Assembly (NCBI RefSeq): GCF_019599295.1
Contig: NZ_JAIEWN010000016.1
Span: 59,839-83,682 of the forward strand
DNA: 23,844 nt
Source: Oscillochloris sp. ZM17-4
GTDB taxonomy: Bacteria; Chloroflexota; Chloroflexia; Chloroflexales; Chloroflexaceae
Direction of reading: 5' to 3'
Part shown: positions 2,472 to 23,844 of the stretch, piece by piece
Numbering within the stretch: the stretch's first letter is position 1
Layout of the letters: each line of letters begins with the position of its first letter
Position numbers and translations under genes: made by a program
The notes under the pieces: model-generated
The model's database searches: none
What the model saw: only the letters and a program-made list of their open reading frames with translations
Told to the model about the DNA's origin: nothing

Positions 2472-2512
2472 ACAGGGGACAGGGGACAGGGGACAGGGGA
2501 CAGGGGACAGGG
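2472..2512 (+). repeat. (ACAGGGG)x5.9 heptamer tandem array. G-tracts are spaced for a G-quadruplex. A degenerate inverted partner (CCTGTNCC units) lies at 2558-2587
   Basis: Read directly: 'acaggggacaggggacaggggacaggggacaggggacaggg' begins 2 nt after the TAG stop at 2468-2470. 'cctgttccctgt...tgtgtcctgtcccc' occurs 45-75 nt downstream, just before the RBS 'ggagg' of the next gene. Confidence 0.9.
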
Positions 2513-2606
2513 TGATGTTACAGACTGGTATCTCATATCGCTCACGTATGCGCTCCGCCTGTTCCCTGTACGCTGTGTCCTGTCCCCTTGTCTTACTGGA
2601 GGAACG

Positions 2607-5262: not shown

Positions 5263-5335
5263 GTAGGGCCGAAGCATTCGCACCGGATGAATCTGCGTGT
5301 CGCACATGCATAGGGTGCGAATGCTTCGGCCCTAC
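5263..5335. repeat. 22-bp perfect inverted repeat with a 29-nt loop between convergent genes. Member of a GTAGGG...CCCTAC hairpin family
   Basis: 'gtagggccgaagcattcgcacc' at 5263-5284 is the exact reverse complement of 'ggtgcgaatgcttcggccctac' at 5314-5335. The loop contains the AATCTGC heptamer. Confidence 0.85.
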
Positions 5336-8012: not shown

Positions 8013-8075
8013 TCTAGTGCCGTTAGCCGGCAGTATAGCACATCTGCGCGGGGGGTGTCTCCCCGCAGGGCGGCC

Positions 8076-8147
8076 GGGGGTGGCGAAGCCACCCCCGAAG
8101 GTTTTTAGTGGGATTTTGGCGGCGAAGCCGCCAAAATCCCACTAAAA
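8076..8147. repeat. Two adjacent perfect palindromes with GAA loops and a GGC-GAA-GCC centre: a 9-bp stem (8076-8096) and a 21-bp stem (8103-8147)
   Basis: 'gggggtggc gaa gccaccccc' and 'ttttagtgggattttggcggc gaa gccgccaaaatcccactaaaa' are each an exact reverse complement around a 3-nt centre. Confidence 0.9.
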
Positions 8148-8207: not shown

Positions 8208-8260
8208 TGTTGTTTTGGCCAACATGGCCAGCTTCGCTGGCCATGTTGGCCAAAACAACA
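8208..8260. repeat. 25-bp-stem perfect palindrome with a TTC centre
   Basis: 'tgttgttttggccaacatggccagc ttc gctggccatgttggccaaaacaaca'. The core 'atggccagc-ttc-gctggccat' is identical (in reverse complement) to the core of the palindrome at 22376-22420. Confidence 0.9.
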
Positions 8261-8296
8261 CCAGTTTTTAGGGCCGCAGCCCCAGGACTCTGTAGC

Positions 8297-8305
8297 TGCT
8301 ATAAT
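8297..8305 (+). promoter_or_regulatory. Extended -10 element (TGcTATAAT) for yggX. An 11-bp direct repeat 'gtatccagcag' x2 lies in the leader (8321-8346)
   Basis: 'tgctataat' sits 56 nt upstream of the ATG at 8361, with no convincing -35. A direct repeat with a 4-nt gap occurs between the -10 and the RBS. Confidence 0.45.
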
Positions 8306-8360
8306 CATAGGACAGCTATGGTATCCAGCAGCGATAGTATCCAGCAGAAGGTGAACCGCT

Positions 8361-8669
8361 ATGCCGCGTATGGTCAACTGTGTGAAGATAGGCCGCGAGC
8401 TGCCGGGGCTGGATCGCCCGCCCTTCAGCGGGCCGCTCGGCCAGCGCATCTTTGAGAGCGTCTCCCAGCAGGCCTGGGCGCTCTGGCCGGCCCAGTCGAC
8501 CCTGATCATCAACCACTACGGGCTGAGCCTGGGCGACCCGAACGCCCAGAAGATCCTGCTCCAGCAGATGGAGGAGTTCTTCTTCGGCGAGAAGGCCCGC
8601 ATGCCCGAGGGCTGGACGCCTCAGCCGGCGGCCCCGGCGGCCAAGGGCGCCGGGCCGAGGCGGAAATGA
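8361..8669 (+). CDS. yggX: Fe(2+)-trafficking / oxidative-damage-protection protein of the YggX family
   Basis: 'MPRMVNCVKIGRELPGLDRPPFSGPLGQRIFESVSQQAWALWPAQSTLIINHYGLSLGDPNAQKILLQQMEEFFFGEK' aligns along its whole length with E. coli YggX ('...[58 protein letters not shown]'). RBS 'gaaggtga'. Confidence 0.85.
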   Translation: MPRMVNCVKIGRELPGLDRPPFSGPLGQRIFESVSQQAWALWPAQSTLIINHYGLSLGDPNAQKILLQQMEEFFFGEKARMPEGWTPQPAAPAAKGAGPRRK

Positions 8670-8670
8670 T

Positions 8671-8704
8671 GGTGTAGGGATGCAGCGTGCTGCGTCCCTA
8701 CACC
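8671..8704. terminator. Bidirectional hairpin (16-bp stem with one G.U pair) shared by convergent yggX and the ATP-grasp gene. It overlaps the ATP-grasp stop codon
   Basis: 'ggtgtagggatgcagc gt gctgcgtccctacacc'. The core 'gtagggaYgcagcgtgctgcgtccctac' recurs at 19318-19353. Confidence 0.6.
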
Positions 8705-9936
8705 ATTGGGATGTTCGGCATGATCTCGAAGGTGAGGCATGCGTGGGCCGCGCGCAGGGCCGCCTCGGCCTCGGCGGGCGCGGCGGCGCGGGCGAAGATG
8801 AAGCCCAGGTAGCTGTCGCCCTCGGGCAGGGGCACCAGGGGGTAGTGCAGGGGCGCGCTGATCTCGACGCGCTCCACCCCCGGCACCGCCCGCGCATCCT
8901 CTAGGCCGCGCACCGCCCGCAGCACCCCGGCCTGCGGGATGGGGATCATCATCACCCCGCCTGCGCCGCCTGTGCGGCCCAGCGACTCCGCCGGCAGCCC
9001 GGCGGCCTGGCTCAGGATCAGCTCCTCCAGCGAGGCGTCGGTGCCGAACTGGAGCGTCTGCGAGCAGAGCCCGCCGATCGTGCGCCCGGCCAGCTCGACC
9101 ATCCACGGCCCGCGATCGTTCACCCGCAGCTCGGCGTGGAGCGGCCCGCGCTCCAGCCCCACCGCCGCCGCCGCCCGCGCCGCCACCGCCCCGATCTGGG
9201 CCTGCGCCTCGGCCGGCAGCCGCGAGGGCGTCACGTAGAGCGTCTCCTCGAAGAACGGCCCGTCCAGCGGGTCGGGCTTGTCGAAGAGGGCCAGCACCCG
9301 CAGCTCGCCGCCGTCGATCACGCCCTCCAGGGCCACCTCAAAGCCGGGGATGAAGTCCTCGGCCAGGAAGGGCTTCGGCCCCGGCGTGGGGTCGACGCGC
9401 TCAAGCAGGCGCGAGATGCGCCGCGCGGCGGCCACGAACTCGGCCGGGCCGTCGGCGCGGATCACCCCCCGGCTGCCGTTGAGCCGCAGCGGCTTCAGCA
9501 CGCAGGGGTAGCTGACCTGCGCGGCCAGCAGCCCCAGATCCTCGCCGGTGGAGCAGAGCCGGAAGGCCGGCGAGGGCACGCCGGCCGCCGCGAAGAGCCG
9601 CCGCATCAGGTGCTTGTCGCGGGCCGCCTCAGCCGCCTCGGGCCGGTTGTGGGGCAGGCCGAGGGCCGCGCTGGCCCGCGCGGCCACCATGGCCCCGCTG
9701 TCGTCCACGGCGATCACGGCGGCCAGGGGCGCCTCGGCGTGGATGGCCAGGATATCGGCCAGGGCGCGGCCCTCGTCATTGAAGTCGATGCCGACCCGGC
9801 CGCCCAGCCGGCCGGCCATGGCCGCCGGCGCATCCTCGGCCACCAGGGCGCGCACGCCCAGCCGCTCGGCCGCGCGCATGAATGCCTCCAGCCGGTAGGA
9901 CGACGGGGTGGTCAGGAGCAGGATCTGCTGGCGCAT
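8698..9936 (-). CDS. ATP-grasp domain protein, L-amino-acid-ligase / carboxylate-amine-ligase-like
   Basis: Start chosen at 'MRQQILLLTTPSS' (ATG 9936-9934); the listed longer ORF begins in repeat DNA. 'EAARDKHLMRRLFAAAGVPSP', 'YPCVLKPLRLNGSRGVIRA' and 'FLAEDFIPGFEVALEG' match the ATP-grasp fold of BacD/YwfE-type ligases. Confidence 0.7.
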   Translation of the reverse strand: MRQQILLLTTPSSYRLEAFMRAAERLGVRALVAEDAPAAMAGRLGGRVGIDFNDEGRALADILAIHAEAPLAAVIAVDDSGAMVAARASAALGLPHNRPEAAEAARDKHLMRRLFAAAGVPSPAFRLCSTGEDLGLLAAQVSYPCVLKPLRLNGSRGVIRADGPAEFVAAARRISRLLERVDPTPGPKPFLAEDFIPGFEVALEGVIDGGELRVLALFDKPDPLDGPFFEETLYVTPSRLPAEAQAQIGAVAARAAAAVGLERGPLHAELRVNDRGPWMVELAGRTIGGLCSQTLQFGTDASLEELILSQAAGLPAESLGRTGGAGGVMMIPIPQAGVLRAVRGLEDARAVPGVERVEISAPLHYPLVPLPEGDSYLGFIFARAAAPAEAEAALRAAHACLTFEIMPNIPMV

Positions 9937-12384: not shown

Positions 12385-13749
12385 TCAGCAGTACCAGGGC
12401 TCGCTCAGGTAGGGGATGGGCGGGCGGGGCAGCAGGTGCGCCAGGCTAGGCCGCGCCCCCGCGCCGATCTGGGAGTCCACCAGATCCCACAGCTTCTCAA
12501 AGAATTGCGCCCGTGTCTCGCCGCGCGGCCCGCTGCCCTGGGCCAGCCGCAGCGCGGCCCGCTGGAGCGTGTCCATCGCCGGATCGGGGTGGCGCCAGGG
12601 GTAGACCAGCCCGGCCGGGTCGAACGGCCCGACCAGATCCCTGACCTCGTCGAGGTGGAGCAGCCAGGAGCCGGACGGGATGAGCAGGCGGATGGCGTAC
12701 TGCACCGGCGAGACGCTCTCGACCAGGCCGAGCTCAGTGATCGCGCGCAGGAAGTCGGCATAGACCTGGCGGCTCGTCCAGGGCGTGAAGGCCACAAAGG
12801 TCGCGTTCAGGCCGACCCCGGCCTCGCGCAGCAGCCCGGCGGCGCGGGCCACATCATCGCGGGTGTGGCGCTTGTCCAGCCGCTCAAGGATGCCCTCGTC
12901 CAGCGCCTCGACCGCGCTCGTCACCAGGGCGCAGCCGGTGTCGCGCAGCTCGGGCAGCAGCTCGGCGTGGCGCAGCAGGTGCTCGACCTTGATCGTCACA
13001 TCGTAGGTGATGCCGGGGTGCTCGGCGTGCAGGGCGCGCACGATCTTCATTGCGTGGCCGGGCCCGTTGAGGAAGTCCGGGTCGCCGAAGGTGATATGGG
13101 CCGCCCCGGCGGCCACCTGGCGGCGCACGTCCTCAAGCACCACATCCCTCGGCACGGTGCGGAAGCGCCCGCCGTAGACGGGGACGATCGGGCAGTGGCG
13201 GCAGGTGTGCTTACAGCCGCGGCTAGCCTCGGTGTAGCCGGCGGCCCGCCGGCCCTCGGCGGTGATCAGGGCGGCGTAGGCCAGCGGGCCGGGCAGGCCG
13301 GCGCGGTCGGGGGGGATGAACGACAGTAGGGGCGTAACAGCGCGCCTGCTCTCATCTGCTGAGGATTCATCTGCCGCTGTTGCGCCCCTACCCTTGTATA
13401 TATCCACCAGGGCGGCCTCAAACTCCCCGCCGACGCAGGCGTCGGCGCCGAGCGCGCGCAGATGATCGGCGTTGAGCGGGGCGTAGAGGCCGTAGCAGAC
13501 GATGGTGGCCTGCGGGGCGAGGGCGCGCAGCTCGGGCAGCAGCTCGGCGGCCAGGCGGGTGGCCGTGTGCATCGGCACATACAGACCGATCAGCGCCGCC
13601 CGCGCCGCCGCCGCCCGGTCGAGCGGCTGGAGCGAGGTGTCGATAGCGAGCACCTCGGCCCCGGCGCGGCGCAGCCATGCCGCCGGCGAGGCCAGCCCGA
13701 AGGGCTGGTGCCCGAGCTCGTAGGTTGAGATCAGCAGCGCGAGAGGCAT
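12385..13749 (-). CDS. B12-binding-domain radical SAM enzyme (class B)
   Basis: N-terminal Rossmann-like B12 domain 'MPLALLISTYELGHQPFGL...IVCYGLYAPLN'. Radical-SAM cluster motif 'SRGCKHTCRHCP' (CxxxCxxC). 'ITFGDPDFL'. The start codon abuts the heptamer array, with no SD. Confidence 0.8.
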   Translation of the reverse strand: MPLALLISTYELGHQPFGLASPAAWLRRAGAEVLAIDTSLQPLDRAAAARAALIGLYVPMHTATRLAAELLPELRALAPQATIVCYGLYAPLNADHLRALGADACVGGEFEAALVDIYKGRGATAADESSADESRRAVTPLLSFIPPDRAGLPGPLAYAALITAEGRRAAGYTEASRGCKHTCRHCPIVPVYGGRFRTVPRDVVLEDVRRQVAAGAAHITFGDPDFLNGPGHAMKIVRALHAEHPGITYDVTIKVEHLLRHAELLPELRDTGCALVTSAVEALDEGILERLDKRHTRDDVARAAGLLREAGVGLNATFVAFTPWTSRQVYADFLRAITELGLVESVSPVQYAIRLLIPSGSWLLHLDEVRDLVGPFDPAGLVYPWRHPDPAMDTLQRAALRLAQGSGPRGETRAQFFEKLWDLVDSQIGAGARPSLAHLLPRPPIPYLSEPWYC

Positions 13750-13751
13750 AA

Positions 13752-13905
13752 TGAATGTTGAATGTTGAATGCTGAATGTTGAATGTTGAGTGGGTGGGGG
13801 TTTCGAAAGCTGGAGCTAGTATAACACGCCGCATAGCCTACAAAGCGCTCCATCTGCCCGGCGCCCTTGGCATTCAACATTCATCATTCATCATTCATCA
13901 TTACC
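13752..13905. repeat. Inverted heptamer arrays: (TGAATGT)5 at 13752-13789 and the complementary (CATTCAN)5 at 13871-13905, separated by about 80 nt
   Basis: Read directly. The right array supplies the TAA stop (13901-13903) of the MVP-like gene. The left array abuts the ATG of the radical-SAM gene. Confidence 0.9.
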
Positions 13906-15312: not shown

Positions 15313-15360
15313 AAGATAGTGCTATACTGACACTAATTAGTGTCAGTATAGCACTATCTT
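15313..15360. promoter_or_regulatory. 48-bp perfect, spacerless, AT-rich palindrome in the promoter/leader of the MVP-like gene. Candidate operator for a dimeric regulator
   Basis: 'aagatagtgctatactgacactaa' at 15313-15336 is the exact reverse complement of 'ttagtgtcagtatagcactatctt' at 15337-15360. It is about 67% AT in a 70%-GC genome. It lies 24 nt upstream of the MVP start and contains TATACT/AGTATA and TTGACA hexamers. Confidence 0.6.
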
Positions 15361-15416
15361 GACAAAACGCAAGCACACATCCCGCTGCTCGCCTGGGCGA
15401 GCACCGTGGCTCGCCC

Positions 15417-16005
15417 CTACTGCTGCTGCTGCATCTGCTGGGCCTCAAGCTCCGCCTCGGCGGGGGTGGGCGGGGCGATCGCCGGCAGCACGCCCTCGTC
15501 GGGGATGAAGGCCTCGGTGGGCACCACCTTCACGCCCACCTCCAGCGAGCTCTCGGCGCGCCCGCGGTAGACGCCCTTCGTCGGCGGGACGTCGGCGTAG
15601 TCGCGGCCGACGGCGACGCGGATGTGGCGGTCGCGGGCGATCAGGTTGTTGGTCGGGTCGAAGCCGACCCAGCCGAGGCCGGGCAGGAGCGCCTCAACCC
15701 AGGCGTGCGAGGCGTCGCGCTCGGAGCGGTCGTGGTCCTCGACGCGGTGGTAGAGGTAGCCGCTCACATAGCGGCAGGGGATGCCCAGCGGTCGCACCAG
15801 GGCGATCATAATATGGGCGAAGTCCTGGCAGACGCCCTTGCGTTTGGCGAGGGCCTCATCGATCGGCGAGTCGACCGTCGTCGTCTGCGGCGCGTAGGCG
15901 AAGGTGCGGTACATGCGCCCGGTGATCTCGTGCAGGAGCGAGAGCGGGTCGCCGCGGCGGCGGAGGTCGAGCTGGCTCGACAGGGCGCTCAGCAGGGGCG
16001 AGGGG
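15417..16005 (-). pseudogene. Transglutaminase-like (Cys-His-Asp) core domain, 5'-truncated gene fragment with no start codon
   Basis: 'LLHEITGRMYRTFAYAP...KRKGVCQDFAHIMIALVRPLGIPCRYVSGYLYH...DASHAWVEALLPGLGWVGFDPTN'. High GC3 on the minus strand persists only to about 16005. Further upstream the minus frame is antisense-like junk, with no ATG/GTG plus RBS. Confidence 0.7.
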
Positions 16006-16010
16006 CGGCG

Positions 16011-16487
16011 GTGATCCTCGGCGGGATGGCCCTGCTGGCGATGAACGTCGAGCGCTTCAACCTGCTGGGGGCCAGCAGCGGCGTGCGCGTGCAGACCTGG
16101 GCCTCGGCCCTGGCCATGCTGCGCGACCACCCGATGGGCGTCGGGCTCGACCAGTTCGGCCGGCTCTACCCGCAGTACATCGACCCGGCGCTCGCCGCGA
16201 CAAACGAGATCAACACGGCCCACCCGCACAACTTGCTGCTCGACATCGCCCTGCGCATGGGGCCGCTCGGCCTGATCGCCTTCGGCTGGCTGCTGGCGAT
16301 CTTCTACCGGCGCATGATCGCCAGGGCTGGCCAGCCGTCGCCCATGCGGGCCGTATATGTCGGCGCCCTGGCGGCCATGACCGGCGCGCTGGTCCACGGC
16401 ATGGTCGACTCCTTCTACTTCTGGCCCGACCTGGCCCTCGCCTTCTGGCTATTCCTGGCCCTGGCGATCTGGCCCGCGGCGGAGTAG
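16011..16487 (+). pseudogene. O-antigen ligase (Wzy_C/WaaL family) C-terminal ~160 aa, 5'-truncated fragment
   Basis: 'VRVQTWASALAMLRDHPMGVGLDQFGRLYPQYIDPALAATNEINTAHPHNLLLDIALRMGPLGLIAFGWLL...' is the periplasmic loop plus last TMs of O-antigen ligases, which are normally 400+ aa with about 12 TM. The listed plus ORF upstream of 16005 is antisense to the transglutaminase fragment. Confidence 0.65.
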
Positions 16488-16541
16488 CGCAGAGCGTAGC
16501 GCGTAGAGCGGCAAACATCCTGTGCTCTGCGCTCTGCGCTC
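16487..16541. repeat. Inverted heptamer-type arrays (AGAGCGT-like x3 and GCTCTGC x2) forming a 10-bp perfect inverted repeat 'gcgcagagcg'/'cgctctgcgc'
   Basis: Read directly, immediately after the TAG of the O-antigen-ligase fragment. Confidence 0.8.
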
Positions 16542-16601: not shown

Positions 16602-16799
16602 ATGCCCTTCTACAAAGACATGCCGCTCGTCTGCCGCGCCTGCGGCGAGACATTCATCTTCACTGCCGGGGAGCAGGAGTTCTACGCCGACAAGGGCTTC
16701 CTCAACGAGCCCACGCGCTGCCCGAAGTGCCGGGTGCGCCGCGAGAGCGCCGGCGGGCGCGGGCGGCGGGATGCCAAGGAGGTAAAAGGTAAAAGGTGA
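16602..16799 (+). CDS. Small Cys4 zinc-ribbon protein (zf-trcl, 'probable zinc-ribbon domain' family)
   Basis: 'CRACGETFIFTAGEQEFYADKGFLNEPTRCPKCR' matches the zf-trcl pattern C-x2-C-G-x-F-x-F-x3-E-Q-x-F-Y-x3-G-F-x-N-x-P-x-R-C-x2-C-R. RBS 'ggagg'. A TACAAT -10-like hexamer lies at 16548-16553, inside a 7-bp inverted repeat (tgataca/tgtatca). Confidence 0.75.
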   Translation: MPFYKDMPLVCRACGETFIFTAGEQEFYADKGFLNEPTRCPKCRVRRESAGGRGRRDAKEVKGKR

Positions 16800-16838
16800 A
16801 AGGTAAATCTTTTACCTTTCACCTTTTACCTTTTACCT
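16780..16838. terminator. 28-bp-stem perfect hairpin built from GGTAAAA heptamers with a 3-nt loop. Bidirectional terminator spanning the stop codons of both convergent genes
   Basis: 'aggtaaaaggtaaaaggtgaaaggtaaa tct tttacctttcaccttttaccttttacct'. The TGA at 16797-16799 and the minus-strand TGA (tca at 16819-16821) both lie inside the arms. Both proteins therefore end in ...VKGKR. Confidence 0.75.
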
Positions 16839-17730
16839 TTGCCCTCAGCACGCCGGGCGTCATCTGGATGCTGATCAGATCGCTGTTACGGATGTATGGC
16901 TGATCCAGGTCGCCTTCTTCAGTGTAATCCAACGCCTCGGCCAAGGCTAACACCTCGCTGCCAGTATGGATGCGGTAAGGAAAGCCCCAGGCCGCCGTGC
17001 CGCGCATGAAGATGAAGGCCCGCCGCGCCGGCCAGGCCTGGTCGATCGCGAAGTCATCGGCCCTCGGCGCGGGCCGGTAGCCGCCGCCCGGCCCCTGCGG
17101 CCGGCGCGGCATGCGCCCCGCCGCCAGCAGGCCGACGGCCTCGGCCAGCAGCCGCCCGCCCAGGGCCGCCGCCCGCCCCTCGACCTCCTCCCAGCCCGCG
17201 CCCGCTGCCAGATCGGCCCCGCCCTGCGCCACGATGTCGCCCGTGTCCAGCCCCGGGTCCATCAGGTGTACCGTCGCCCCGACGCGCTCCGCGCCCGCGC
17301 GCAGCGCCCAGAAGATCGGCTCGGGGCCGCGCAGATCGGGCAGCAGGGAGGGGTGGACGTTCAGGAAGCCGTGGCGGGGCAGGCCCAGCAGGGCCGGCGG
17401 GATGCGCCAGGGCCAGCACGCCACACAGGCCAGGTCGGGCCGCAGCGCGGCCAGGGCGGCCAGCGCCGCCGCGCCGGCGGGCCGGCCGAGGGCCAGGGCC
17501 GGGATCGCGTGGGCGGCCGCGATCTGGAGGATGTTCGGCGGCGCGGCCCCGGCGAGCGGCAGCAGCCCCGCTGGCGCGGGCGTCGGCGGCAGCCGGGCGA
17601 GCGGCGGCGCCCCCGGCGGCGCGGGCACGGCCACACACACCACCTCGGCCCCCGCGTCGAGCAGGGCCGCCAGCGGCGGCGCCGAGAAGCGCCCCGGCAT
17701 CCCGAAGAAGAGTACCCGTAGCGGCTGCAT
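16819..17730 (-). CDS. fmt: Methionyl-tRNA formyltransferase family protein (Fmt-like, both domains). An alternative start lies 10 codons upstream at 17760
   Basis: 'MQPLRVLFFGMPGRFSAPPLAALLDAG' is Fmt N-terminus-like. The catalytic region 'HGFLNVHPSLLPDLRGPEPIFWALRAGAERVGATVHLMDPGLDTGDIVAQ' matches the Fmt 'HxSLLPxxRG...TGVT.H.M....DTGD' motifs. The listed 541-aa ORF's N-terminal 238 aa are antisense-like junk. Confidence 0.75.
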   Translation of the reverse strand: MQPLRVLFFGMPGRFSAPPLAALLDAGAEVVCVAVPAPPGAPPLARLPPTPAPAGLLPLAGAAPPNILQIAAAHAIPALALGRPAGAAALAALAALRPDLACVACWPWRIPPALLGLPRHGFLNVHPSLLPDLRGPEPIFWALRAGAERVGATVHLMDPGLDTGDIVAQGGADLAAGAGWEEVEGRAAALGGRLLAEAVGLLAAGRMPRRPQGPGGGYRPAPRADDFAIDQAWPARRAFIFMRGTAAWGFPYRIHTGSEVLALAEALDYTEEGDLDQPYIRNSDLISIQMTPGVLRAKVKGKR

Positions 17731-19210: not shown

Positions 19211-19317
19211 TGCGCTTTCAGCGCAGGGGTTAGGAGTCGGGAGTCGGGGGTTGGGCGTTGTGATGCGACAGCACGCAGCATCGTGTCCAAAAAGGTTGCT
19301 TGAATCTGCACGAGGGA

Positions 19318-19368
19318 CGCCGTAGGGACGCAGCGTGCTGCGTCCCTACGGCGTTCTCTTTTTTTGTT
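19318..19368 (+). terminator. Rho-independent terminator of rpoN: 17-bp GC-rich stem followed by 'ttctctttttttgtt'
   Basis: 'cgccgtagggacgcagc gt gctgcgtccctacggcg' plus a T-run. The core is the same as the hairpin at 8671-8704, with compensatory outer base pairs. Confidence 0.85.
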
Positions 19369-20624: not shown

Positions 20625-23218
<2,594 letters not shown>

Positions 23219-23229
23219 AGGGCTACTCC

Positions 23230-23266
23230 GTAAGGGCGCAGCAGCCTACGGCTGCTGCGCCCTTAC
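23230..23266. repeat. 17-bp-stem perfect hairpin 'cgtaagggcgcagcagcc tac ggctgctgcgcccttacg', a diverged member of the GTAGGG...CCCTAC family. It lies in the divergent PyrK-like/priA leader region
   Basis: Read directly. It sits 12 nt upstream of the PyrK-like ATG and overlaps the spacing of its 'ggag' RBS. Confidence 0.8.
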
Positions 23267-23303
23267 AGTGTACCATCATCCGACTCCCTGCTATACTGAG
23301 GCC

Positions 23304-23844
23304 ATGCCGACCGACATGATCGCCGACATTGCTCTGCGCGCGAGCATCGGGGCGGGGGAGAGCCCGGTCTTCTCCTACCGCGTGCCGGCGCGCCTGCGCG
23401 GGCTGGCCCGGCCGGGCCAGCTGGTCTGGGTGCCGCTGCGCCGCCAGCGCGTGCAGGGGGTGGTGCTGGCCCTGCGCGAGGGCGGTGATTCCGACGGCGG
23501 GCGCGAGCTGCGCGAGATCGTCGACCTGGCCGACCCCGAGGCGAGCATCACCGCCGCCGGGCTGCGCCTGGCCGAGTGGGTGGCCGCCACCTACCGCGCG
23601 CCGCTCTACGAGGCCCTGGCCCTGCTGCTGCCGCCGGGGGTCGGCCAGGAGGCCGAGCCGATCTACACGGCCACGCTCGCCGGCATGCAGTCGGCGCTGG
23701 GCGAGCTGCCGCCCCGCGAGCGGGCCATCCTCTACTACCTGCGGGTCAACGGCCAGCAGTCCGAGCGCGACCTGCGGGCGGCCCTGCGCGGCGGCGACGG
23801 CGACCTGCGCGAGGCCTACGCGGCCCTGGCCGAGCGCGGGCTGG
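23304..23844 (+). CDS. priA: Primosomal protein N' (PriA), N-terminal 3'-DNA-binding domain. 3'-partial: it runs off the window
   Basis: High-GC3 open frame from ATG 23304 to the window end. 'IADIALRASIGAGESPVFSYRVPARLRGLARPGQLVWVPLRRQRVQGVVLAL' fits the PriA N-terminal pattern (V.VPL...F.Y.VP..L....G.RV.VPFG.R...GVV). 'LAEWVAATYRAPLYEALALLLPPGV' is also PriA-like. Confidence 0.7.
   Translation, partial: MPTDMIADIALRASIGAGESPVFSYRVPARLRGLARPGQLVWVPLRRQRVQGVVLALREGGDSDGGRELREIVDLADPEASITAAGLRLAEWVAATYRAPLYEALALLLPPGVGQEAEPIYTATLAGMQSALGELPPRERAILYYLRVNGQQSERDLRAALRGGDGDLREAYAALAERGL

What the first reader, a model, noticed from the sequence alone, without database searches (positions are those of the whole stretch)
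5263..5335. Family of 'GTAGGG...CCCTAC' hairpin elements at four loci with compensatory base changes
Four long perfect hairpins share the ends GTAGGGNCGNAGC...GCTNCGNCCCTAC. They lie at 5263-5335 (22-bp stem, 29-nt loop), 8671-8704, 19318-19353 and 23230-23266. The copies at 8671 and 19318 have identical 28-nt cores but different outer stem bases that still pair (ggtg/cacc versus cgcc/ggcg). This argues for selection on structure rather than sequence. Two sit after stop codons of convergent or terminal genes: one has a U-tract and is a classic terminator, one overlaps a stop codon. One lies in a 5' leader next to an RBS, and one lies between convergent genes. This looks like a genome-specific REP-like dispersed element family doubling as terminators.
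Basis: seen in the sequence. Interest (0 to 1): 0.5.

Follow-up and report, generated by a model that had tools for sequence, protein, structure and literature searches.

The report
GTAG-footed REP hairpins in Oscillochloris
The hairpins are real copies of a known kind of small mobile DNA palindrome, the GTAG-tagged "REP" elements that go with RAYT transposases and occur in many bacterial phyla, so they are an ordinary genomic parasite or passenger and not a new, genome-specific regulatory family.

Summary
All four hairpins exist at the stated coordinates and are far beyond chance.

Some details are wrong. The two "identical" 28-nt cores differ by one base. The 23230 copy starts GTAAGGG. That copy lies between divergent genes, upstream of a leaderless-type promoter, not in a 5' leader next to an RBS.

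The family is not genome-specific. A covariance model built only from those foreign copies finds all five window sites.

The same element lies inside or beside RAYT-like Y1 transposase genes in six loci from other genomes. This matches published "double-foot" GTAG REPs of RAYT subclass 2.4.

Across the genome sample, 12% of copies lie inside called genes, against 73% of random positions. Only about 4% have a T-rich tail, so terminator activity is occasional, as after rpoN. GTAG feet donate TAG stop codons to two window genes. Related genomes lack these copies at the same sites.

Verdict: a new member of a known kind. Low to moderate interest. I could not check for a RAYT gene in the source genome.

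The parts
5263..5335 (.). Long double-foot REP, equivalent to a head-to-head REP dimer (REPIN-like). Arms of 22 bp, GTAGGGCCGAAGCATTCGCACC / GGTGCGAATGCTTCGGCCCTAC, with a 29-nt spacer. It lies between the convergent histidine kinase gene (stop 5134) and ftsK (stop 5478).
   Evidence: model R1 35.8 bits, E 4e-7
8669..8706 (.). Short double-foot REP with core 8674-8701 (GTAGGGATGCAGC GT GCTGCGTCCCTAC) plus a 5-bp outer stem ATGGT/ACCAT. It lies between convergent yggX (stop 8667-8669) and the ATP-grasp gene. CTA at 8698-8700, inside the CCCTAC foot, is that gene's TAG stop codon.
   Evidence: R1 43.7 bits; the orthologous junction in L119 holds an unrelated hairpin
13326..13391 (.). Intragenic double-foot REP or head-to-head dimer of 66 nt (22 codons), read in frame as ..GRGATAADESSADESRRAVTPL.. 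It sits in the hypervariable linker between the B12-binding and radical SAM domains of gene 12385-13749 (- strand).
   Evidence: R1 30.0 bits
15395..15420 (-). Canonical one-footed REP on the - strand: GTAG GGGCGAGC CACGGT GCTCGCCC. The TAG of its foot (15417-15419) is the stop codon of the transglutaminase-like gene 15417-16397.
19317..19367 (+). Short double-foot REP with core 19322-19349 (GTAGGGACGCAGC GT GCTGCGTCCCTAC), a 5-bp outer stem ACGCC/GGCGT and a T-run (19355-19367). It lies 107 nt after the rpoN stop (19210) and has the anatomy of an intrinsic terminator.
   Evidence: R1 47.6 bits
23230..23266 (.). Variant double-foot REP with GTAAGGG/CCCTTAC feet, a 17-bp stem and a TAC loop. 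It lies in the 85-nt divergent gap between the pyrK-like gene (- strand, start 23218) and priA (ATG 23304, TATACT at 23292-23297).
   Evidence: R1 37.8 bits
19708..19729 (-). Possible decayed REP, GTGG GT GCGCAGC GC GCTGCGC. It matches only the inner part of the model, so membership is uncertain.
   Evidence: 17.1 bits, E 0.02

Best explanation
**What it is**
The hairpins are GTAG-tagged repetitive extragenic palindromes (REPs) of the "double-foot" type. Each is a G+C-rich stem-loop whose base is three G-C pairs. A GTAG lies directly 5' of the stem and its complement CTAC lies 3' of it.
- The two long copies (5263, 13326) are equivalent to head-to-head REP dimers (REPIN-like): two inverted arms around a spacer.
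- The window comes from Oscillochloris sp. ZM17-4 (Chloroflexales).

**How it most likely works**
Such elements are non-autonomous. A single-copy REP-associated tyrosine (Y1/HuH) transposase, RAYT/TnpA_REP subclass 2.4 (Bertels group 4), is thought to recognise the GTAG foot plus hairpin on single-stranded DNA, then cut and rejoin it. This spreads copies in trans.

**What the copies do once in place**
- They survive where they do little harm: intergenic gaps, gene 3' ends and flexible protein linkers.
- Their effects are incidental.
  - They donate TAG stop codons (ATP-grasp and transglutaminase genes).
  - They add a very stable 3' stem-loop to transcripts.
  - Where a U-tract follows, as after rpoN, they complete an intrinsic terminator.

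**Shown versus inferred**
- Shown here: the anatomy, membership of the cross-phylum family, the intergenic bias, the physical link of the same element to RAYT-like genes in other genomes, and absence of these copies at the same sites in related genomes.
- Inferred: that a RAYT is encoded in this genome and is what moves these copies, and that any copy affects RNA.
For: **Anatomy and statistics**
- Hairpins, shuffle controls and fold energies.

**Family membership**
Copies fall mainly into a 28-31 nt class and a 69-75 nt class, and the palindrome ends sharply at GTAG/CTAC.
- In 111 of 127 copies, all three positions left free in the search pattern are complementary.
- Model R1, built only from foreign copies, scores all five window sites at 30-47.6 bits (best strand), E <= 1.2e-5.

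**Source genome**
- P0001 is 100% identical and annotated as from Oscillochloris sp. ZM17-4.

**Link to RAYT**
- RAYT-like genes carry the element in frame just after the HuH motif and/or directly beside the gene.
  - L015 6463-7026: Pfam Y1_Tnp 31.9 bits; NCBIfam REP_Tyr_transpos E 4e-19.
  - Also L088, L075, L201, L202 and L203.
- At least 46 of the 120 best homologues have an RGEA/VGAK...ASPL insert after NHxH, which is what the arms encode.
- The homologues come from the same phyla as the elements.

**Literature**
- Quentin et al. 2018 (PMC6006769) describe exactly this for subclass 2.4: a GT[AG]G foot, three G-C pairs at the stem base, "double foot" C[TC]AC, and REPs inserted in frame in tnpA_REP.
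- Di Nocera et al. 2013 (PMC3733652) describe GTAG REPs in Chloroflexi and Cyanobacteria, head-to-head dimers, TAG stops donated to ORFs, and intragenic dimers encoding 20-30 aa.

**Distribution**
- 12% of sampled copies are intragenic against 73% of random positions.
- 17 of 127 copies supply a TAG stop.

**Turnover between relatives**
- The radical SAM protein of relative L119 is 85% identical. L119 has one copy in 18.9 kb and none at the window's sites.
- L204 has none in 21 kb.
Against: - No RAYT gene lies in the window. The source genome could not be searched, so the transposase for these particular copies is unproven.
- One copy (23230) lies between divergent genes, which is less usual for REPs.
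- In the cross-genome sample, copies in tandem gene contexts are no closer to the upstream stop than to the downstream start (25 of 52, rough gene calls).
- Two of the five window copies have 5-bp paired flanks outside the feet. The simple REP model does not explain this.
- RAYT-driven transposition of REPs has never been shown directly for this subclass (own knowledge; see also PMC6006769).
Confidence: 0.8

Rival explanations
1. The hairpins are host RNA elements (bidirectional or intrinsic terminators, or mRNA 3' stabilisers) kept by selection on structure. The shared GTAGGG...CCCTAC ends are a convergent or locally copied motif rather than the mark of a mobile element.
For: - Site 19317-19367 is a textbook terminator after rpoN.
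- Sites 5263 and 8669 lie between convergent genes.
- The orthologous yggX/ATP-grasp junction in L119 also holds a hairpin, of unrelated sequence.
- All copies fold very stably as RNA.
Against: - Only 1 of 5 window copies and 5 of 127 sampled copies have a T-rich tail.
- Window copies also lie in a divergent promoter gap and inside a coding linker.
- Near-identical sequence across phyla cannot come from selection on structure alone.
- The same sequence is embedded in and flanks RAYT genes.
Confidence: 0.08
2. The elements are MITEs. The 69-75 nt copies would be internally deleted derivatives of an insertion sequence with GTAGGGGCGAAGCATT... terminal inverted repeats, moved by a DDE transposase.
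For: - The long class has 18-22 nt inverted termini around a variable centre of constant length.
- Centres are related within a genome, for example the two Brocadia copies in L031.
Against: - No target-site duplication flanks any window copy or the sampled copies.
- No full-length parent with these ends appeared in 118 loci, and no recurrent neighbouring transposase except the Y1 RAYT-like genes.
- The ends start with the RAYT guide tetranucleotide GTAG.
- The 28-nt copies have no room for an internal region.
Confidence: 0.05
3. The palindromes are made in place by template switching or inverted duplication at fragile sites. GTAG REPs would be only one of several hairpin types produced or exchanged at the same hotspots.
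For: - Three sister genomes carry three unrelated palindromes in the same radical SAM linker. Two others (L204, L205) have none.
- The window holds many other long perfect hairpins and inverted heptamer arrays.
- Sites 8669 and 19317 have paired flanks outside the REP feet.
Against: - In-place generation cannot give the same 13-nt heads in many phyla, or the link to RAYT genes.
- The 45-nt hairpin at 22376-22420 sits within a 54-nt insertion relative to L112, and its arms are not copies of the flanks.
Confidence: 0.05

Closest known systems
"Double-foot" and canonical long REPs associated with TnpA_REP/RAYT subclass 2.4 (Bertels group 4), described by Quentin et al. 2018, PMC6006769
   Same: - A GT[AG]G foot directly at the stem, with three G-C pairs at the stem base.
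- The reverse-complement foot C[TC]AC at the 3' end.
[quoted passage not shown]
- A host range of Cyanobacteria, Bacteroidetes and scattered other phyla.
- All of this was seen here.
   Different: - Oscillochloris and the Chloroflexales are not named as hosts in the passages of that paper read here.
- The cognate RAYT of the window's genome was not seen.
- Two window copies carry extra paired flanks outside the feet.
- One copy has a GTAAGGG foot.
GTAG-tagged REP superfamily (24 families), Di Nocera, De Gregorio and Rocco 2013, PMC3733652. It includes GTAG-23 of Thermomicrobium roseum (Chloroflexi) and GTAG-12/15/16 of Cyanobacteria.
   Same: - A GTAG tag, short G+C-rich stems and 2-3 nt loops.
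- Head-to-head dimers with 20-100 bp spacers.
- Mostly intergenic location.
- TAG of the tag used as a stop codon by flanking ORFs.
- Intragenic dimers encoding 20-30 aa.
- Clustered arrays (L045).
   Different: - In that paper the tag is described as unpaired at one end. Here most copies carry it at both ends, so it is part of the palindrome.
- The paper's consensus sequences are in a figure that is not held, so I could not assign the window's copies to a numbered family.
REPINs of Pseudomonas and enterobacteria (Bertels and Rainey 2011, PMC3116915), mobilised by RAYT groups 2 and 3
   Same: - Two inverted REPs around a spacer that fold into one long hairpin, as at 5263-5335 and 13326-13391.
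- Singlets occur alongside doublets.
- The transposase acts in trans and is not linked to most copies.
   Different: - A different RAYT group (4, i.e. subclass 2.4) and a different REP sequence.
- The short copies here are single hairpins with two feet, not decayed half-REPINs.
Rho-independent (intrinsic) terminators
   Same: Copy 19317-19367 has a 20-pair G+C-rich stem followed by a T-run after the rpoN stop codon.
   Different: The other window copies and about 96% of the sampled family lack the T-run. Sequence conservation across phyla is not a property of terminators.

Membership tests
GTAG REP / double-foot REP (RAYT subclass 2.4 type) | A 5' GT[AG]G tetranucleotide directly at the foot of a G+C-rich stem-loop | tested here: met
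   GTAG is present at 5263, 8674, 13326, 19322 and 15420 (- strand). 23230 has the variant GTAAG.
GTAG REP / double-foot REP (RAYT subclass 2.4 type) | Three consecutive G-C pairs at the stem base, and the reverse-complement foot C[TC]AC at the 3' end | tested here: met
   All five double-footed copies have GGG...CCC followed by CTAC. The feature is as worded in PMC6006769.
GTAG REP / double-foot REP (RAYT subclass 2.4 type) | Sequence and structure match to family members from other genomes | tested here: met
   Covariance model R1, built from 24 copies from other genomes only, scores the five window sites at 47.6, 43.7, 37.8, 35.8 and 30.0 bits.
GTAG REP / double-foot REP (RAYT subclass 2.4 type) | Many dispersed copies per genome, mostly intergenic | tested here: inconclusive
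   - The window has 5 double-footed copies, 1 one-footed copy and 1 doubtful copy in 23.8 kb.
- The cross-genome sample is 12% intragenic against 73% for random positions.
GTAG REP / double-foot REP (RAYT subclass 2.4 type) | A cognate RAYT (Y1/HuH) gene flanked by, or containing, the same REP | tested here: met
   - Met in other genomes: L015, L088, L075, L201, L202 and L203, plus RGEA..ASPL inserts in at least 46 of 120 homologues.
- Not testable for Oscillochloris sp. ZM17-4 itself. There is none in the window.
GTAG REP / double-foot REP (RAYT subclass 2.4 type) | Binding, cleavage or mobilisation by the RAYT | not testable with these tools
   This needs biochemistry or genetics. The only indirect evidence is presence/absence between related genomes.
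REPIN (inverted REP doublet) | Two REPs in inverted orientation around a short spacer, folding into one hairpin | tested here: met
   - 5263-5335: 22-nt arms, 29-nt spacer.
- 13326-13391: 17-nt arms with one mismatch, 32-nt spacer.
- The three short copies are single hairpins, not doublets.
Intrinsic terminator | A G+C-rich stem-loop immediately followed by a U-tract, downstream of a gene | tested here: not met
   Met only by 19317-19367. The other four window copies and 122 of 127 sampled copies lack a T-rich tail.
MITE of a DDE insertion sequence | Terminal inverted repeats plus direct target-site duplication, and a full-length parent element | tested here: not met
   No direct repeats flank any copy. 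No parent element or recurrent DDE transposase was found in 118 loci.
Integron attC site | Core sites RYYYAAC...GTTRRRY (own knowledge), arrays next to an intI integrase | tested here: not met
   The feet are GTAGGGG/CCCCTAC, not GTTRRRY. There is no integrase or cassette array in the window.
Any Rfam RNA family | Match to a curated covariance model | tested here: not met
   There are no matches at gathering score. Only sub-threshold hits to miRNA-precursor hairpin models appeared.

The most novel reading that the evidence does not exclude
In Oscillochloris-like Chloroflexales, hairpin DNA of unrelated families lands repeatedly in the same few dozen bases. The families are GTAG REPs, perfect 44-nt palindromes, inverted heptamer arrays and GAA-capped hairpins. 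The sites seen are the radical SAM linker in three sister genomes and the yggX/ATP-grasp junction. This would imply insertion or replacement targeted at sites or structures, for example RAYT-type exchange at an existing hairpin. The paired flanks outside the feet at 8669 and 19317 would then be relics of the earlier hairpin.
Probability: 0.15. Interest if true: 0.6.

Novelty: new member of a known kind. Interest (0 to 1): 0.28.

Why it matters
- It explains these hairpins without invoking a new regulatory system. It adds Oscillochloris (filamentous anoxygenic phototrophs) to the hosts of RAYT-type REPs.
- It is a caution for annotation. These elements supply stop codons, add 22 codons to an enzyme linker, and create long spurious ORFs and terminator calls in a 70% G+C genome.
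- The dense, varied hairpin content of this genome, and the replacement of one hairpin by another at the same sites in sister genomes, could make Oscillochloris a useful system for studying how single-strand hairpin elements choose targets. That is a lead, not a result.

Tried and rejected
**Dead ends**
- Exact-protein look-ups of three window proteins found no contig. The source was identified only through a 100% identical protein named Oscillochloris sp. ZM17-4.
- Two pattern-syntax attempts failed, and two Pfam calls failed on frame errors.
- A literature search for the 13-mers found nothing relevant.
- Rfam at gathering and E-value thresholds gave only sub-threshold miRNA-hairpin matches.
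- Clustering ORFs within 2.5 kb of the 127 foreign copies showed no common neighbour. The only exception was a three-locus cluster, which turned out to be the RAYT-like gene.

**A misdirected search**
- A Y1 transposase consensus written from memory found nothing in the loci.
- In metagenomes it found 80 genes flanked by GGGGTCAGGTCTT inverted repeats. These are the "TIRYT" type of Di Nocera et al., and none had GTAGGGG.

**Ideas considered and dropped**
- attC sites: the core is wrong.
- CRISPR: there is no array.
- DDE MITEs: no target duplication and no parent element.
- tRNA or tmRNA: none found.
- The outer stems arising from inverted duplication of the target. The one insertion that could be compared with an empty site (22376-22420 against L112) is wholly foreign sequence.

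**A test that did not show the expected bias**
- Positional bias toward upstream stop codons in tandem gene contexts was not seen (25 of 52). The gene calls were rough.

Full report
**1. Observation**

- 5263-5335: a 22-bp perfect stem and a 29-nt loop.
- 8669-8706: contains GTAGGGATGCAGC-GT-GCTGCGTCCCTAC.
- 19317-19354: an 18-bp perfect stem followed by TCTCTTTTTTTG.
- 23230-23266: a 17-bp perfect stem.

Chance does not produce them.
- The degenerate pattern GTAGGGNNGNAGC...GCTNCNNCCCTAC occurs three times in the window and never in 100 dinucleotide-preserving shuffles.
- GTAGGG occurs 18 times against 7.0 +/- 2.6.
- The four reported sites fold as RNA at -33 to -54 kcal/mol, with z-scores of -7.6 to -8.8. 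The fifth copy described below folds at -37.9 kcal/mol, z -4.5. All fold similarly well as DNA.

Several details need correcting.
- The two "identical" cores differ at one base (T8681 for C).
- The 23230 copy starts GTAAGGG.
- A fifth copy, 13326-13391, was missed.
- A one-footed copy on the minus strand, 15395-15420, was also missed.

**2. Source and gene context**

A 100% identical radical SAM protein is annotated as from Oscillochloris sp. ZM17-4. A Chloroflexales MAG (L112) shares 78% DNA identity with part of the window. Pfam and GC3 analysis give the gene map.

| Copy | Context |
|---|---|
| 5263 | Between the convergent histidine kinase gene and ftsK |
| 8669 | Between convergent yggX and an ATP-grasp ligase gene, whose TAG stop is the CTA at 8698-8700 inside the CCCTAC foot |
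| 13326 | 66 nt (22 codons), in frame in the radical SAM gene |
| 15395 | Its GTAG foot supplies the TAG stop of the transglutaminase-like gene |
| 19317 | 107 nt after the rpoN stop, followed by a T-run; the only terminator-like copy |
| 23230 | In the 85-nt gap between a divergent pair (pyrK-like gene, start 23218; priA, ATG 23304), ending upstream of the TATACT box at 23292-23297 |

The 23230 copy is therefore not in a leader next to an RBS.

**3. The family is not genome-specific**

They come from Chloroflexota, Cyanobacteria, Brocadia/Kuenenia, Thermoanaerobaculia and other Acidobacteriota, Armatimonadota, Gemmatimonadota, Rhodothermales, Nitrospinota, Calditrichota, Bacteroidales and others.

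Most copies fall into two size classes.
- 28-31 nt: GTAGGGGCGCAGC-NN-GCTGCGCCCCTAC.
- 69-75 nt, in two forms:
  - 18-22 nt arms (GTAGGGGCGAAGCATTYG...) around a variable centre;
  - two complete small hairpins head to head (GTAGGGGCGCAGCATGCTGCGCCC - spacer - GGGCGCAGCATGCTGCGCCCCTAC).

Other properties of the sample:
- The palindrome ends exactly at GTAG/CTAC in most copies, and no target duplication is visible.
- All three positions left free in the pattern are complementary in 111 of 127 copies.
- One 28-mer in a Bacteroidales MAG is identical to the window's 19322 core.
- A covariance model built from 24 foreign copies only scores the five window sites at 47.6, 43.7, 37.8, 35.8 and 30.0 bits.
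- In Candidatus Oscillochloris fontis the arms also form tandem arrays.

**4. What it is**

No Rfam family matches. The anatomy is that of GTAG-tagged REPs.

Di Nocera et al. 2013 (PMC3733652) sorted such repeats into 24 families. These include families in Cyanobacteria, Planctomycetes, Verrucomicrobia and the Chloroflexi member Thermomicrobium roseum. They describe:
- head-to-head dimers with 20-100 bp spacers;
- location mostly between convergent and same-direction ORFs;
- TAG of the tag used as a stop codon;
- intragenic dimers encoding 20-30 residues.

Quentin et al. 2018 (PMC6006769) tie one type to TnpA_REP/RAYT subclass 2.4 (Bertels group 4). That type has long REPs whose stem base is three G-C pairs, and "double-foot" REPs with a 5' GT[AG]G and a 3' C[TC]AC. 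[quoted passage not shown] The listed hosts are "Cyanobacteria, Bacteroidetes and various phyla".

**5. Direct link to RAYT genes, tested here**

Most of the 118 loci have no common neighbour. Three loci carry a RAYT-like gene in contact with the element.
- L015 6463-7026: MPNHFH ... WQRGYYDR ... YIEENP. Pfam Y1_Tnp scores 31.9 bits against a cut-off of 23. NCBIfam "REP-associated tyrosine transposase" gives E 4e-19, which is below its equivalog cut-off. One copy lies in frame after the HuH motif and another lies 2 nt after the stop codon.
- L088: one copy 27 nt upstream of the gene and one inside it.
- L075: one copy inside the gene.

A profile search returned at least 7,895 relatives, many named RayT by their sources and from the same phyla as the elements. 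In at least 46 of the best 120, the segment after NHxH reads RGEA/VGAK ... ASPL, which is what GTAGGGGCGAAGC ... GCTTCGCCCCTAC encodes.

Three further gene contexts confirm the DNA element.
- L201: inside the gene, plus a head-to-head dimer upstream.
- L202: just downstream of the gene.
- L203 (Leptolyngbya): a 72-nt copy inside the gene.

This co-travel of the element with its transposase gene is a plausible reason why the heads are conserved across phyla.

**6. Behaviour**

In the cross-genome sample:
- 12% of copies lie inside called genes, against 73% of random positions (rough gene calls).
- Convergent, tandem and divergent gaps hold 23, 52 and 16 copies. This is close to what gap lengths predict.
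- In tandem gaps, copies are no closer to the upstream stop than to the downstream start (25 of 52).
- Only 5 of 127 copies have a T-rich tail, against 2.2% of random positions.
- 17 of 127 supply the TAG stop of a called gene.

So the family is intergenic, as tolerated insertions are. It is not a terminator family. Copy 19317 is a terminator by circumstance.

Related genomes differ in content.
- L119 (radical SAM protein 85% identical) has one copy in 18.9 kb. It is at another site and gives TAG stops to both of its convergent genes.
- L204 has none in 21 kb.
- At the orthologous yggX/ATP-grasp junction, L119 has an unrelated hairpin.

**7. The "compensatory" outer stems**

Copies 8669 and 19317 each have five paired bases outside the feet (ATGGT/ACCAT and ACGCC/GGCGT). 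They lie at different loci, so this is not covariation between orthologues.

Across genomes such extensions are uncommon but enriched. Six of 127 copies have 4 or more paired flanking bases, against about 0.5 expected. One possibility, not shown, is insertion into the centre of an older hairpin.

**8. An unexplained side observation**

In the radical SAM linker, L204 and L205 have no palindrome and keep a conserved LERL/LERI motif. The window, L119 and L120 each have a different palindrome at the same place:
- window: a GTAG REP;
- L119: a perfect 44-nt palindrome;
- L120: an inverted CAGGAGG heptamer array.

The window also holds GAA/TTC-capped perfect hairpins and inverted heptamer arrays. 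One of these, 22376-22420, lies within a 54-nt insertion relative to L112. This suggests hotspots or hairpin-for-hairpin replacement, and it is the basis of the "novel case".

**9. Limits**

I therefore could not search the source genome for its RAYT or count its copies. Mobilisation by RAYT is inferred from association and from the literature.

**10. Verdict**

This is a new member of a known kind, and interest is low to moderate.

Noticed in passing
window 8075-8097, 8103-8147, 8208-8260, 22376-22420; L119 3553-3603; L120 1563-1605: These are long perfect hairpins (10-25 bp stems) with unrelated arms, all capped by GC-GAA-GC or GC-TTC-GC. 8208 and 22376 share the core ATGGCCAGC-GAA-GCTGGCCAT. 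8103-8147 has GTGG...CCAC feet. 22376-22420 lies within a 54-nt insertion between the pyrK-like stop and a methylase start, relative to the L112 orthologue.
   Followed up: partly
window 2472-2588, 13752-13902, 16486-16541, 16780-16840; L120 469-542: Inverted pairs of tandem heptamer arrays (ACAGGGG, TGAATGT/CATTCAT, AGCGTAG/CTGCGCT, AGGTAAA/CTTTTAC) lie in intergenic gaps. They resemble cyanobacterial STRR repeats. In L120, a CAGGAGG array of this kind lies inside the radical SAM coding linker.
   Followed up: partly
window 13326-13391; L119 7874-7917; L120 469-542; L204 and L205 linkers: The same 20-27 residue linker of the CUAEP/CCAEP-tail radical SAM gene holds three unrelated palindromes in three sister genomes. 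Two other genomes have none there.
   Followed up: partly
window 15313-15360; L119 5999-6045: A 48-nt perfect palindrome carries TATACT on both strands upstream of the SPFH/vault-like gene. It is conserved in sequence in the relative, so it may be a bidirectional promoter or an operator.
   Followed up: no
window 23292-23306; window 8290-8320; L119 7496-7525: TATACT/TATAAT boxes lie only 6-9 nt upstream of start codons (priA, and radical SAM in L119). This suggests leaderless transcripts in this lineage.
   Followed up: no
window 20625-23060: The 811-codon + strand ORF has Pfam support (DUF4097) only near its start. Its distal half overlaps two - strand genes that do have Pfam hits: an N6_N4 methylase fragment (21768-22373) and a DHODB Fe-S protein (22424-23218). 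That half is therefore probably a spurious high-GC ORF.
   Followed up: partly
L121-L200 (metagenome contigs): Y1 transposase genes of a different subfamily are flanked by inverted repeats that contain GGGGTCAGGTCTT. This is the GGGGWSAS "TIRYT" type of Di Nocera et al. None of them carries GTAGGGG elements.
   Followed up: partly
L045 6851-7230 (Candidatus Oscillochloris fontis): REP arms form tandem arrays. GTAGGGGCGAAGCATCGCCCACCA repeats four times with a 24-nt period, followed by several right arms 40-80 nt apart. The arrangement is BIME-like.
   Followed up: no
L119 13369-13411: A double-foot REP (GTAGGGCGC-GCT-GCGCCCTAC) has an 11-bp outer stem. Both convergent genes run into it and end at the TAG of its feet, so both proteins end in the same residues, RGRS.
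   Followed up: partly
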